This document shows, one piece after another, positions 49,822-52,054 of a stretch of DNA of 64,000 bases. Source of the DNA: an uncultured Actinomycetota bacterium (lineage in GTDB: Bacteria; Actinomycetota; Actinomycetes; Actinomycetales; Dermatophilaceae); contig CAWBEH010000008.1 of NCBI GenBank assembly GCA_963787725.1, positions 64,806 to 128,805 on the forward strand, in the 5' to 3' direction. How positions within the stretch are numbered: position 1 is the first letter of the stretch; the number at the start of each line of letters is the position of its first letter. Under the pieces are notes generated by a model. That model did not search any database. It was not told the origin of the DNA and was given only the letters and a program-made list of their open reading frames with translations. The translations under genes were made by a program, and so were the position numbers.

Positions 49822-50511
49822 ATGCGAGTCGTCATCACCGGAGCGGGCAGTGTCGGGCGGTCCATCGCTCGAGAGCTGCTCCACAACGGCCACCAGGTAC
49901 TGATCATCGACAAGGACGCCGACGACGTCCAGGCGTCGCGCGTCCCGGACGCGGCCTGGCTCCTCGCCGACGCCTGCGAGATCGCGGTCCTCGAGGAAGC
50001 CAGGGTCCACGAGTGCGATGTCGTCGTGGCGGCGACCGGCGACGACAAGGTGAACCTCGTGGTCTCGCTGCTGTCGAAGACCGAGTTCGGCGTGCCCCGC
50101 ACCGTGGCGCGGGTCAACAACCCCAAGAACGAGTGGATGTTCGACGAGTCGTGGGGCGTCGACGTGGCGGTGTCGACGCCGCGCCTGATGACGGCGCTCG
50201 TCGAGGAGGCCGTCAGCGTCGGCGACCTGGTCCGCATCTTCCAGTTCCAGCAGGCCAAGGCGTCGATGGTCGAGCTGACCATGCCGGGCGAGAGCCCCTA
50301 CATCGGCAAGCGGATCGCCGAGATCGAGTGGCCGGACGACACGGTGCTCGTCGGGATCATCCGCGACGACCGGCCGATCGCGCCGAGCCGCGACGACGCG
50401 GTGGAAGCGCACGACGAGCTGCTGTTCATCACGACGCCGGACAACGAGGACGTCCTCGAGCAGATGCTCTCCCCTGGCCCCCGTCCCCCTCGGGATGACG
50501 ACTACAACTGA
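49822..50511 (+). CDS. trkA: TrkA-type RCK protein (CeoC-like); stop codon formed at the IS junction
   Basis: MRVVITGAGSVG, DACE, TGDDKVNL, ARVNNPKNEW. Confidence 0.9.
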   Translation: MRVVITGAGSVGRSIARELLHNGHQVLIIDKDADDVQASRVPDAAWLLADACEIAVLEEARVHECDVVVAATGDDKVNLVVSLLSKTEFGVPRTVARVNNPKNEWMFDESWGVDVAVSTPRLMTALVEEAVSVGDLVRIFQFQQAKASMVELTMPGESPYIGKRIAEIEWPDDTVLVGIIRDDRPIAPSRDDAVEAHDELLFITTPDNEDVLEQMLSPGPRPPRDDDYN

Positions 50512-50589
50512 TATGTAGCGGCTTGTTGTCAAGTGGGCAGGGTGAGGCGCCGCCGGGGTTGGTTCCTGGCGGCGCCTCGTCGCTTCGTC

Positions 50590-50762
50590 GGGCGGGTTGC
50601 TGGCGAGCGTGTCGTTGGCGACGCGCGGTCAGACTGATATGCGCGGGTTGGTTACCGCAGGACGGTGGTTCGGCAGGAGCGGGACCGCGGCTCTAGGGTC
50701 GAGCGTCGCTGTTCCCGAGAGGGATTGGCTGCTCATAGTTGATTCGCGGGTCGCTCCTCGCG
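50590..50762 (-). ncRNA. putative bridge RNA in the 3' non-coding end of the IS110 element (ends approximate)
   Basis: A clear stem-flanked target-binding internal loop and a less well-defined donor-binding loop carry CAACT (50741-50737), CCTAG (50697-50693), ACCGTC (50666-50661) and CATATCAG (50641-50634), which match the target and donor junctions. Confidence 0.7.
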
Positions 50763-50803
50763 CTGCCGTCAGCGGCCGCGGGGACGAAGCGGGCCGTGGG
50801 TGG

Positions 50804-51898
50804 TCAGTCGTCCATGACGGCCAGGGACCAGCACCAGCCGGCGAGCTCGCGGGCGATGGCAACGTTCGCGATGACGTGCCGTTTGTGCCGCTCGGTAAAG
50901 GTGACCCAGCGATGGTGCAACCGCCGGTTGCCCTCGTCGCCGCGGGCTCGCGCGGCGGCCGGAGCCAGCTCCCAGCGCTGCCGCATCGTGGTGCCGACGA
51001 CGTACCGGGCCCGGTGATGCCACGCGGCCTCGACGAGGAGTCGGCGGGCGTGACCGTTGCCGGTCTTGGTGACCGACCCCTGGACCCGGGATGCGCCGGA
51101 GGAGTACTCGCTGGGCACCAGCCCCACGAACGAGCCGATGGTGTTGCCGGTGAACCGGTGCCAGTCACCGATCTCGACGGCAAGGGCGAACCCGGTCAAG
51201 GTCGAGATCCCGCGCAGGCACCCCAGCCGGTGCACCACCGACGTGAACTCGCTGTCCGCGGCCATCGCCGCGATCGCCGCATCGAGACGGTCCCGGCGCG
51301 CCTTGACCGTCAATACCGCTTCGAAGTCGGACTCGAACGCCAGCCGACTCGCTGCCGACTCCAGCCGCTGCCGACGCAGCCACGCCTCATGCGCACCGGT
51401 CCACGCCCGCCCACCGCAGTACACGATGCCCTGCCGCAGCAACAGCTTGGACAGCCGGTGCCGGGCCCGCATCAGATCCCCGCGACAGTCCTCCCGCGCC
51501 CGCACCAGGTCCCGGGCCGCCTCCTGGTCGATGCTGGGCACCGTCACCGACGTCACCTCGTCCATCACCTCGTCGGGGCGCAGCAGCCGCGCCAGGTGCA
51601 ACGCGTCACGCTGGTCGGTCTTGACCCGGTCGCCGCTGGGCCGCTGCAGCTTGCTCGGCGCCGCGACCTGACACCGCACGCCGGCCGCGGTCAGCGCCCG
51701 GTACAGCCCGAACCCCGTCGGGCCGGCCTCATACGTCGCCGCCGCCGTCCCCGGTAGCGCCCGCACCCACCGCAGGATCTCGCCATGATCCGGGGTCAGC
51801 CGGGCCCTGAACACCTCGCCGGTCACCCCATCGATCGCCGCCGCGACCACCGATCGTGCGTGCACATCCAGTCCCACACTCGTACGCTCAGAGAACAC
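50804..51898 (-). CDS. IS110 DEDD recombinase/transposase
   Basis: GLDVH, YEAGPTG, KTDQRDA (RuvC DEDD); GLVPSEYSSG (catalytic Ser motif); TKTGNGHARRLLVEAAW. Confidence 0.95.
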   Translation of the reverse strand: MFSERTSVGLDVHARSVVAAAIDGVTGEVFRARLTPDHGEILRWVRALPGTAAATYEAGPTGFGLYRALTAAGVRCQVAAPSKLQRPSGDRVKTDQRDALHLARLLRPDEVMDEVTSVTVPSIDQEAARDLVRAREDCRGDLMRARHRLSKLLLRQGIVYCGGRAWTGAHEAWLRRQRLESAASRLAFESDFEAVLTVKARRDRLDAAIAAMAADSEFTSVVHRLGCLRGISTLTGFALAVEIGDWHRFTGNTIGSFVGLVPSEYSSGASRVQGSVTKTGNGHARRLLVEAAWHHRARYVVGTTMRQRWELAPAAARARGDEGNRRLHHRWVTFTERHKRHVIANVAIARELAGWCWSLAVMDD

Positions 51899-52028
51899 CG
51901 GGGCCTCCCACACATGTCGGATAGGCCGAGCAGGCAGCCCCCACTCGGTAACCCACGAATCTGAGTGAGTGAGGCCCCGGCCCGCAACCACCCAGCAGAC
52001 CCGAGCAGTCACGCCATACCGTCTAGGC

Positions 52029-52054
52029 GGCTGAACGAGCTGCTCCGTTCGGCT
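52029..52054. terminator. hairpin between convergent trkA and DUF3159
   Basis: GCTGAACG (52030-52037) / CGTTCGGC (52046-52053), starting 4 nt after the restored TAG. Confidence 0.55.

What the first reader, a model, noticed from the sequence alone, without database searches (positions are those of the whole stretch)
50590..50762. Readable bridge RNA: four guides in the IS110 3' non-coding end match this element's own target and donor
Seen in sequence: the reconstructed target is ACTACAA-CT-AGGCGGC and the donor (circle junction) is ATACCGT-CT-GATATGT. On the minus strand, downstream of the recombinase, a stem (GGAGCGACC...GGTCCCGCTCC) encloses an internal loop AATCAACTAT / GACCCTAGAGC closed by GAGC/GCTC. 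Its guides CAACT and CCTAG together specify CAACTAGG, the 8 nt centred on the real target core. A second loop, whose outer stem is less clear, has ACCGTC and CATATCAG flanking a GCGG/CCGC hairpin; these specify ACCGTCTGATATG, 13 nt of the donor. The order is LTG-RTG-LDG-RDG. Established knowledge: this is the bispecific bridge-RNA layout of IS110 recombinases (IS621 type, CT core). Inference: this is an actinobacterial programmable bridge recombinase with a 3'-encoded RNA, and its guide-predicted preferred target is about GAATCAA-CT-AGGGTCG.
Basis: partly seen in the sequence, partly recalled or inferred. Interest (0 to 1): 0.9.

Follow-up and report, generated by a model that had tools for sequence, protein, structure and literature searches.

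The report
Guide RNA of an IS1111-type element
The non-coding tail of this actinobacterial jumping gene does encode a guide ("bridge" or "seek") RNA that spells out both its landing site and its own ends, but this is a further example of a mechanism published in 2024, not a new one.

Summary
Window 50510-52024 (minus strand) is an intact 1515-bp IS110-family element with a second, 99%-identical copy elsewhere in the genome. Its 294-nt 3' non-coding end holds a structured RNA with four short guides in the stated order.

In this one sequence the matches are no better than chance (410 of 3000 shuffles do as well). The case rests on about 75 homologous elements. The 5' target-loop bases track the right flank (p<=1e-4). 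The Y before UAG tracks the left flank (57/57). Changes in the element's ends are matched in the donor guides. The stems, including the hairpin between the donor guides, keep pairing through compensatory changes.

Three points need correcting. By four features tested here it is an IS1111-group element, not "IS621 type". Only about 8-9 bp of target are read (NNNN-CT-AR), not the 16 nt predicted. A 3'-encoded bridge RNA is the published norm for this group, and NCBI already names the protein family "RNA-guided transposase".

Side observations: the clade homes on CTAG, often at IS481-family ends or at stop codons, which it preserves. No RNA data could be obtained. Verdict: new member of a known kind.

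The parts
50510..52024 (-). Complete IS110-family (IS1111-group) insertion sequence, 1515 bp counting one copy of the CT/AG core. The core copies lie at 50508-50509 and 52023-52024.
   Evidence: 99%-identical second copy with different flanks. Junction coordinates. Orthologous uninterrupted sites.
50804..51898 (-). Recombinase/transposase gene: GTG start, 364 aa, RBS GGGAGG at 51909-51904. Motif residues are D11, E57, D95, D98 (DEDD) and S267 in GLVPSEYSSG.
   Evidence: Pfam PF01548 and PF02371. NCBIfam NF033542, 188 bits against a cut-off of 140. Motif positions.
50763..50767 (-). 5' strand (GGCAG) of helix P0. It pairs with CUGCC at 50676-50672 and closes the target-loop domain.
   Evidence: Duplex predictions across the family. 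An alternative register GGCUGG/CCAGCC appears where the 3' strand reads CCAGCC. RNAalifold pairs columns 6-7 with 125-126.
50676..50757 (-). Target-binding stem-loop: P1 GGAGC/GCUCC, P2 CCGCG/CGCGG, internal loop, P3 UGAGC/GCUCG, variable apical hairpin.
   Evidence: RNAalifold consensus. 94.1% of cells paired against 87.2% in shuffles. Covariation score 0.161 against 0.056, reached by 0 of 500 shuffles. Compensatory changes in P1, P3 and the apical helix.
50736..50742 (-). Left target guide UCAA-CU-A, on the 5' side of the target loop. It has the same sequence as the + strand of the target and so pairs with the transposase-sense strand.
   Evidence: The 4 nt next to CU match the right flank in 45, 61, 59 and 49 of 61 insertions (p<=1e-4 at each position). 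The fifth is weak and the sixth shows nothing.
50691..50697 (-). Right target guide CCUAG (50697-50693) followed by the handshake-type bases AG (family consensus AC) at 50692-50691.
   Evidence: The Y before UAG tracks the left flank in 57 of 57 cases, including 4 U/T cases. Position -3 is weak (p=0.017). In L106 and L109 the guide reads AAAAUAG and AUAAG, matching flanks AAATAG and ATAAG. AC after UAG equals LE bases 1-2. L003 has ACC with LE ACC, and L111 has UCA with LE TCA.
50661..50666 (-). Left donor guide ACCGUC. It equals the reverse complement of the first 5 bases of the left end (ACGGT) plus the core C.
   Evidence: LE ACGGT pairs with CCGUC in about 55 elements. LE ACCGT pairs with ACGGUC in L003 and L109. 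LE TCAGC pairs with GCCGAC in L111, and LE TCATC with CACGAC in L112.
50642..50660 (-). Hairpin CUGCGG-UAACCAAC-CCCGCG between the two donor guides.
   Evidence: Invariant in 62 close relatives. Pairing is kept in distant ones through GCGU/ACGC (L107), GAGG/CCUC (L108) and GCGC/GCGC (L110). L109 has a 25-nt insertion in the hairpin loop.
50633..50641 (-). Right donor guide (C)AUAUCAG, equal to the last bases of the right end plus the core AG. It is followed by U 50633, a handshake-type base that equals the first flank base T.
   Evidence: RE ATATCAG pairs with AUAUCAG in the main family. RE ACATCAG pairs with ACAUCAG in L111, L112 and L115. For the base after the guide: C goes with flank C in 10 of 14 cases and A with flank A in 1 of 1.
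50544..50578 (-). GC-rich hairpin GAGGCGCCGCC...GGCGGCGCCUC, a possible 3' boundary or terminator of the RNA.
   Evidence: MFE fold. Inverted repeat I24, 14 nt at 93% complementarity. There is no U tract and its function is untested.
50510..50532 (-). Right end: conserved TTGACA (50532-50527), a degenerate subterminal inverted repeat, and the tip CATATC.
   Evidence: Family alignment of right ends. The subterminal repeat TATG is invariant and reaches 12-13 bp perfect in some members, with a median of 9 of 14. This copy has 8 of 14.
52008..52022 (-). Left end: ACGG extension followed by the subterminal repeat TATGGCGTGAC.

Best explanation
This is an intact, probably active IS1111-group member of the IS110 family of RNA-guided insertion sequences.

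The DEDD/Ser recombinase gene lies at 50804-51898 on the minus strand. It is followed, inside the element, by a bridge RNA (also called seekRNA) of about 130-220 nt, read in the same direction as the gene.

The RNA has two parts. The first is a stem-loop with an internal loop. The 5' side of that loop (UCAA-CU-A) and its 3' side (CCUAG) pair with opposite strands of the target around a CT/AG core. The second part has two guides, ACCGUC and AUAUCAG, flanking a small hairpin. They pair in the same way with the junction of the element's own two ends in the excised circle.

By analogy with IS621, ISEc11 and ISEc21, recombinase subunits bound to the two parts bring donor and target together and exchange strands at the core. 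The one or two bases 3' of each right-hand guide are complementary to the partner DNA, as 'handshake' guides are in IS621.

What is shown here: the element's ends, the RNA fold, its strand, and the covariation of all four guides with the DNA they are proposed to read. What is inferred: transcription, binding to the recombinase, and catalysis.

In this clade the target address is short, about 8-9 bp (NNNN-CT-AR), and is built on the rare palindrome CTAG.
For: Recombinase family:
- Pfam DEDD_Tnp_IS110 and Transposase_20.
- NCBIfam 'IS110 family RNA-guided transposase', 188 bits against a cut-off of 140.
- DEDD and SG motifs are present.

Mobility and ends:
- Two copies, 99% identical, lie at different sites.
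- A 75%-identical relative and a broken copy are in the same genome.
- Orthologous empty sites exist in relatives.

RNA fold:
- z = -5.7 for the 3' non-coding end.
- The consensus structure has compensatory changes. 94.1% of cells are paired, and 0 of 500 shuffles reach the covariation score.
- U-G pairs that hardly vary (61 of 62 and 59 of 62 sequences) fit only the transposase-sense strand.

Guide-to-DNA covariation:
- Left target guide against the right flank: 247 matches against 148.8 +/- 7.0 in permutations, p<=1e-4. This still holds with one site per guide (142 against 71.7).
- Right target guide: Y-TAG in 57 of 57.
- Variants in distant relatives match their flanks (L106, L109, L112).
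- Donor guides follow changes in the left end (ACGGT, ACCGT, TCAGC, TCATC) and in the right end (ATATC, ACATC).

Placement and prior knowledge:
- The closest named relatives, ISSso6 and ISEc45 (37-40% identity over the full length), are listed by Durrant et al. as IS1111 group with the bridge RNA in the right end.
- The guide order, top-strand match 5' of bottom-strand match, is the one reported for IS1111 seekRNAs (PMC11187229).
- All four matches of the RNA model in this genome lie inside IS copies.
Against: - There is no direct evidence that the RNA is made.
- No Rfam family matches.
- In the single sequence the guide matches are not above chance.
- None of the three occupied sites in this genome matches the left target guide perfectly (1-2 mismatches each). 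Four perfect CTAGTTGA sites are empty.
- Donor ends and donor guides are almost invariant in the close family. Donor covariation therefore rests on a handful of diverged lineages, and some of those keep a mismatch (L105, L111, L112).
- The closing stem of the donor loop is not defined.
- phmmer finds no solved structure, including IS621, so similarity to the structurally studied enzyme rests on family profiles only.
Confidence: 0.9

Rival explanations
1. The guide matches are coincidences. The 3' non-coding end is merely a structured 3' UTR or terminator region of the transposase mRNA, and target choice is made by the protein.
For: The single-sequence matches are within the range of shuffles. 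A GC-rich hairpin lies near the end. The occupied sites match the guides imperfectly.
Against: The loop bases change together with the flanks across 61 and 57 independent insertions. They also change together with the element's ends in diverged relatives. Protein-only recognition would not make non-coding loop bases track each lineage's site.
Confidence: 0.03
2. The conserved segments act as DNA, for example subterminal transposase-binding repeats or DNA-DNA pairing with the target, and not as an RNA.
For: The guides are DNA copies of end and target sequences. Transcription was not shown. IS1111-group elements do carry subterminal repeats.
Against: The conserved helices contain U-G pairs that hardly vary (61 of 62 and 59 of 62) plus G-U variants. 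These would be A-C mismatches on the other strand or in duplex DNA. Stems are kept by compensatory changes. Homologous systems co-purify with the RNA and need it in trans (PMC11187229).
Confidence: 0.04
3. It is a target-only seekRNA. The first stem-loop is the functional guide RNA. The ACCGUC and AUAUCAG segments are not used as donor guides, and the ends are recognised by the protein through the subterminal repeats.
For: The abundant seekRNAs of the IS1111 elements tested are 82-96 nt, and the text describes their matches to the target only. Donor guides and ends are nearly invariant in the close family. The outer stem of the donor loop is undefined.
Against: Changes in the left and right ends in L003, L109, L111, L112 and L115 are mirrored in the two segments. 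The hairpin between them is kept by compensatory changes. Durrant et al. report loops complementary to both target and donor in the IS1111 elements they inspected.
Confidence: 0.1

Closest known systems
IS1111-group bridge RNAs / seekRNAs: ISEc11, ISPa11, ISKpn4, ISPst6 (Siddiquee et al. 2024, PMC11187229) and the right-end bridge RNAs predicted for 93% of IS1111 elements (Durrant et al. 2024, PMC11208160)
   Same: The RNA is encoded in the long non-coding region 3' of the DEDD recombinase gene. The ends carry subterminal inverted repeats. The guide complementary to the top strand lies 5' of the one complementary to the bottom strand. Insertion is site-specific around a 2-bp core, with no further duplication. 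Elements of this group often land in other mobile elements.
   Different: The recombinase is only distantly related to the tested enzymes: tblastn aligns just the C-terminal third with ISKpn4-type proteins. At 364 aa it is larger than the 330-350 aa given for the IS1111 family. The target address is short and CTAG-centred. The hosts are actinobacteria, and there are no experimental data.
ISSso6 and ISEc45 (ISfinder; listed 'RE, IS1111' in a supplementary file of PMC11208160, its file 8)
   Same: They are the closest named recombinases, 37-40% identical over the full length. The predicted position of the RNA is the same.
   Different: They are proteobacterial. Their RNAs and targets were not compared here. 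The covariance model built on this clade was not tried on them.
IS621 bridge recombinase and bridge RNA (IS110 group; PMC11208160, PMC11208158)
   Same: [quoted passage not shown]
   Different: In IS621 the RNA is encoded 5' of the gene in the left end and the CT core is on the same strand as the gene. Here the RNA is 3' and the CT core is on the opposite strand. IS621 reads 11-14 bp of target and this clade about 8-9 bp. phmmer finds no similarity to any solved structure.
IS4321/IS5075 (targets: Tn21-family terminal repeats) and ISEc21 (target: inside IS3-family transposase genes)
   Same: Like these, many members of this clade land at a fixed point of another mobile element. Here that point is the tip of an IS481-family element next to its CTAG target duplication.
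   Different: The host element differs. The window's own copy is not in an IS481 end but at a look-alike site at the trkA stop codon.

Membership tests
IS110 family (RNA-guided DEDD recombinases) | Recombinase with an N-terminal RuvC-like DEDD domain and a C-terminal Tnp domain bearing the conserved Ser-Gly | tested here: met
   PF01548 (1.2e-13) and PF02371 (1.4e-14). NF033542, 188 bits against a cut-off of 140. D11, E57, D95, D98 and S267-G268 in GLVPSEYSSG.
IS110 family (RNA-guided DEDD recombinases) | Site-specific insertion with no target duplication beyond a shared 2-bp core | tested here: met
   Both junctions share only AG (CT on the + strand). Two copies and orthologous empty sites.
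IS110 family (RNA-guided DEDD recombinases) | Non-coding RNA whose loops covary with target and donor DNA | tested here: met
   Permutation tests. Donor and target variants. Structure covariation.
IS110 family (RNA-guided DEDD recombinases) | The RNA is transcribed, binds the recombinase and is required for transposition | not testable with these tools
No experiments were possible.
IS1111 group | Longer non-coding region downstream of the recombinase gene, with the RNA in the right end | tested here: met
   The left end has 124 nt non-coding and the right end 294 nt. The RNA lies at 50633-50767.
IS1111 group | Subterminal inverted repeats of about 7-17 bp with short terminal extensions | tested here: met
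   Met for the family: TATG is invariant, the repeat is 12-13 bp perfect in L014, L015 and L022, and the median is 9 of 14. In this copy it is degenerate (4 bp perfect, 8 of 14).
IS1111 group | The guide complementary to the top strand lies 5' of the guide complementary to the bottom strand, with strands defined by the gene | tested here: met
   The 5' loop AAUCAACUAU is complementary to the transposase-sense strand TAGTTG. The 3' loop CCUAGA is identical to that strand. Rule taken from PMC11187229.
IS1111 group | Recombinase clusters with IS1111-group recombinases | tested here: inconclusive
   The nearest named hits, ISSso6 and ISEc45, are labelled IS1111 by Durrant et al.. No tree with reference sequences was built. 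The protein length (364 aa) exceeds the 330-350 aa range quoted for the group.
IS621-type (IS110 group) bridge RNA | Bridge RNA encoded in the left end, 5' of the recombinase gene, with the CT core on the gene's strand | tested here: not met
   The RNA is 3' of the gene. The CT core is on the opposite strand.

The most novel reading that the evidence does not exclude
This actinobacterial clade may be specialised for a very short address built on the palindrome CTAG, with only four freely programmable bases (NNNN-CT-AG).

That address would serve two purposes. First, it would home on the tips of IS481-family elements, whose target duplications contain CTAG. Second, it would land on TAG stop codons without changing the protein: the left junction keeps TAG, and the right end (..CATATCAG, read on the other strand as CTGATATG) turns C-TAG into C-TGA.

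If so, this is a guide RNA tuned for harmless landing pads rather than for a single long site.
Probability: 0.4. Interest if true: 0.4.

Novelty: new member of a known kind. Interest (0 to 1): 0.27.

Why it matters
It adds an intact, two-copy actinobacterial element to the catalogue of bridge/seek-RNA recombinases. About 75 relatives give a ready-made covariation map of which RNA bases read which DNA bases. That map could help anyone who wants a high-GC-adapted recombinase of this kind.

The map also shows that natural guides can be much shorter than those of IS621. The CTAG, stop-codon and IS481-end preference is a modest ecological point about how such elements avoid harming their hosts.

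It does not open a new mechanism, and a specialist would not be surprised by it.

Tried and rejected
- Rfam scan at permissive E-values gave nothing relevant.
- phmmer against PDB sequences gave no hit, so no structural comparison with IS621 was made.
- I considered that GACGG upstream (50770-50766) sequesters the left donor guide, as in the single-sequence MFE. Family comparison shows instead a conserved helix GGCAG/CUGCC that closes the target-loop domain, so I dropped the sequestration idea.
- RNAalifold's alternative fold pairs CCGU with GCGG and puts the right donor guide in a hairpin loop. I rejected it. L003 and L023 break it, while the GCGG/CCGC hairpin is kept by compensatory changes in distant relatives.
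- I looked for a junction promoter formed by the conserved TTGACA in the right end. By eye there is no -10-like hexamer at 16-19 nt in the circle junction, so this stays unexplained.
They do not covary.
- The left ends of L104, L107 and L110 could not be located.

Full report
**What is there**

The region is the 3' part of an insertion sequence on the minus strand of the window. The gene at 50804-51898 has a GTG start, encodes 364 aa, and is preceded by the RBS GGGAGG. It matches Pfam DEDD_Tnp_IS110 and Transposase_20. It also matches NCBIfam NF033542, which NCBI names 'IS110 family RNA-guided transposase', at 188 bits against a cut-off of 140. The catalytic motifs are present: D11, E57, D95, D98 and S267-G268 in GLVPSEYSSG.

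A search of the window's own assembly found three further copies or relatives:
- a 99%-identical copy on another contig (C17)
- a 75%-identical relative (C14)
- a copy split by other insertion sequences (C12)

Aligning the two near-identical copies fixes the ends. The element is 50510-52024, 1515 bp with one copy of the core. In transposase orientation the junctions are GCCGCCT-AG|ACGGTATGG... and ...CTACATATC-AG|TTGTAGT.

Joining the flanks restores a trkA-like ORF ending ...DDYN-TAG. Same-genus genomes with an uninterrupted locus end the orthologue at the same codon: DDYQ-TAG in L089 and DDYR-TAG in L091.

**Is the observation more than chance?**

Taken alone it is weak. The longest exact matches of the 264-nt non-coding stretch to the target and donor, on both strands, sum to 26. 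Dinucleotide shuffles give 23.6 +/- 1.7, and 410 of 3000 shuffles do as well. The 3' non-coding end does fold unusually well (z = -5.7). No Rfam family matches. The question therefore had to be settled by comparison with relatives.

**Comparative evidence for the target loop**

The search for related loci returned 80 homologous elements, 73-83% identical at the protein level, from Nocardioides, Kribbella, Terrabacter, Sinomonas and others. Nearly all share three features:
- the left junction YTAG|ACGGTATG
- the right junction CATATCAG|NNNN
- an RNA scaffold GGAGCGACCCGCG-[6 variable nt]-CUAUGAGC...GACGCUCG-[variable]-YUAGACA-CGCGG..GCUCC

For 61 distinct insertions carrying 35 distinct guides, I compared the reverse complement of the variable hexamer with the right flank. 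It matches at positions +1 to +4 in 45, 61, 59 and 49 cases. Permuted pairings give 21, 36, 42.5 and 26 (p<=1e-4 at each position). Position +5 is weak (23 against 14.7) and +6 shows nothing. With one site per guide the total is 142 against 71.7 +/- 6.3.

On the other side of the loop, only the base before UAG tracks the left flank (57 of 57, including four U/T cases). The next base tracks it weakly (p=0.017), and the outer bases do not track it at all.

The real address is therefore about NNNN-CT-AR, 8-9 bp. The extrapolated preferred target GAATCAA-CT-AGGGTCG is not supported.

In this genome the three occupied sites each have one or two mismatches to UCAA. Four perfect CTAGTTGA sites are empty.

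**Comparative evidence for the donor loop and the fold**

In the close family the ends and the two donor segments (CCGUC and AUAUCAG) are almost invariant. The exception is the 75% relative L003. Its left end begins ACCGT and its guide reads ACGGUC.

I built a covariance model on 62 RNAs. It matched 13 of the other 400 genomes in a phylum-wide sample (14 of 401 including the window's own). In the own genome it matched only inside the four IS copies. The weaker hits supply the missing variation.

| Locus | End sequence | Matching guide |
|---|---|---|
| L109 | LE ACCGT | ACGGUC |
| L111 | LE TCAGC | GCCGAC |
| L112 | LE TCATC | CACGAC |
| L111, L112, L115 | RE ACATCAG | ACAUCAG |

L111 and L112 share one persistent mismatch.

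The hairpin between the two guides is invariant in the close set. In distant relatives it keeps pairing as GCGU/ACGC (L107), GAGG/CCUC (L108) and GCGC/GCGC (L110). L109 has a 25-nt insertion in the hairpin loop.

Distant relatives also vary the otherwise fixed CTAG:
- L106: flank AAATAG with guide AAAAUAG.
- L109: flank ATAAG with guide AUAAG. The other guide changes from CUA to CUU to match.

For the target stem-loop, RNAalifold and an explicit pair count give 94.1% paired cells against 87.2% in shuffles. The covariation score is 0.161 against 0.056, reached by 0 of 500 shuffles. Compensatory changes occur in three helices. U-G pairs that hardly vary (61 of 62 and 59 of 62) fit only the transposase-sense strand. 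This argues for an RNA rather than a DNA element. A further helix, GGCAG/CUGCC, closes the domain.

**Handshake-type bases**

The bases 3' of the right target guide are AC in the family consensus, and they equal the first bases of the left end. L003 has ACC with LE ACC. L111 has UCA with LE TCA.

The base 3' of the right donor guide tends to equal the first flank base. C goes with C in 10 of 14 cases and A with A in 1 of 1. L003 matches 3 bases (CCU with CCT).

This is the arrangement described for the handshake guides of IS621 (PMC11208158). The signal here is suggestive rather than strong.

**Which known family**

The logic is that of the bridge RNA of IS621 (PMC11208160), but the element is not of IS621 type:
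- The long non-coding end and the RNA are 3' of the gene.
- The ends carry subterminal inverted repeats. TATG is invariant, the repeat reaches 12-13 bp in some members, and it is degenerate in this copy.
- The CT core lies on the strand opposite to the gene.
- Relative to the gene, the top-strand-complementary guide comes first. Siddiquee et al. report exactly this for IS1111 seekRNAs, and the reverse for IS110-type ISEc21.

tblastn against plasmids shows that the nearest named recombinases are ISSso6 and ISEc45, at 37-40% identity over the full length. One supplementary file of Durrant et al. (its file 8) lists both as 'RE, IS1111'. A text search of another (its file 4, whose title and column headings I did not read) turned up an unnamed entry labelled Actinobacteria with recombinase motifs much like ours. 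That paper predicts a bridge RNA in the right end of 93% of IS1111 elements.

The finding is therefore a correct reading of a known kind of system. Earlier notes of this scan on similar elements reached the same kind of verdict. I did not use them as evidence.

**Side observations**

- The clade's address contains the palindrome CTAG. This occurs only 1386 times in this 70.8% GC genome.
- A gene ending on TAG keeps a stop codon whichever side it approaches from. The left junction retains TAG. The right end turns C-TAG into C-TGA, as at trkA here.
- By a crude ORF criterion, 18 of 44 distinct sites abut a gene end.
- Eight of 54 right flanks encode an IS481-family transposase within 1.2 kb (NF033577, 327 bits for L012). 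By my reading of the flanks printed, at least 13 carry an IS481-type terminal repeat (NTGT...GTTGG) directly after the CTAG.
- IS481-family elements are known, from my own knowledge, to insert at NCTAGN. Many members of this clade therefore sit exactly at the junction between an IS481 tip and its target duplication. This recalls IS4321/IS5075 at Tn21 ends.

**Limits**

Transcription, protein binding and activity were not tested. No tree against reference recombinases was built.

**Verdict**

- Observation: confirmed.
- Class: new member of a known kind.
- Interest: low to moderate.

Noticed in passing
window 50496-50511 and 52023-52036: The insertion sits exactly on the stop codon of the trkA-like ORF (49822-50511). 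The original ...TAC AAC TAG became ...TAC AAC TGA, with GA supplied by the element's right end, so the protein is unchanged. Orthologues end DDY[QR]-TAG at the same place.
   Followed up: yes
L009-L088 flanks (for example L012:2700-4071, L019, L022, L037, L055, L076): Many relatives are inserted at the tip of an IS481-family element, right next to its CTAG-containing target duplication. 8 of 54 right flanks encode an IS481 transposase. By my reading of the printed flanks, at least 13 carry NTGT..GTTGG terminal-repeat-like sequence.
   Followed up: partly
L009-L088 and window junctions: By a crude ORF-length and GC3 criterion, 18 of 44 distinct insertion sites abut the end of a gene-like ORF. 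Three of them are convergent gene pairs sharing the CTAG. No proper null model was run.
   Followed up: partly
window 50527-50532: A perfect TTGACA is conserved in nearly all family members about 17 nt from the right tip. In the circle junction no -10-like hexamer follows at normal spacing, so it is not an obvious junction promoter. Its role is unknown.
   Followed up: partly
G000 C12:96354-100673 (L004, L005): A third, diverged copy of the element is split inside the recombinase gene by about 2.8 kb that carries an IS3-family and an IS256-family transposase gene (NCBIfam 287 and 237 bits). Its RNA region is intact, but its left junction reads TTG|TCGG instead of TAG|ACGG.
   Followed up: partly
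G000 C4:8181, C4:462829 (minus), C13:548626, C15:89393: Four sites matching the guide-specified CTAGTTGA perfectly are unoccupied. The three occupied sites each have 1-2 mismatches to the left target guide.
   Followed up: no
whole genome G000: CTAG is about nine-fold under-represented: 1386 sites against roughly 12,500 expected from base composition in 4.69 Mb at 70.8% GC.
   Followed up: no
L062-L073 (Sinomonas sp. ASV322): At least ten copies of one family member lie at contig ends of a single assembly. Their left target guide specifies TTGC and their handshake-position base is C. The occupied sites are a mix of TTGC and CTGC, as if both RNA positions influence the first flank base.
   Followed up: no
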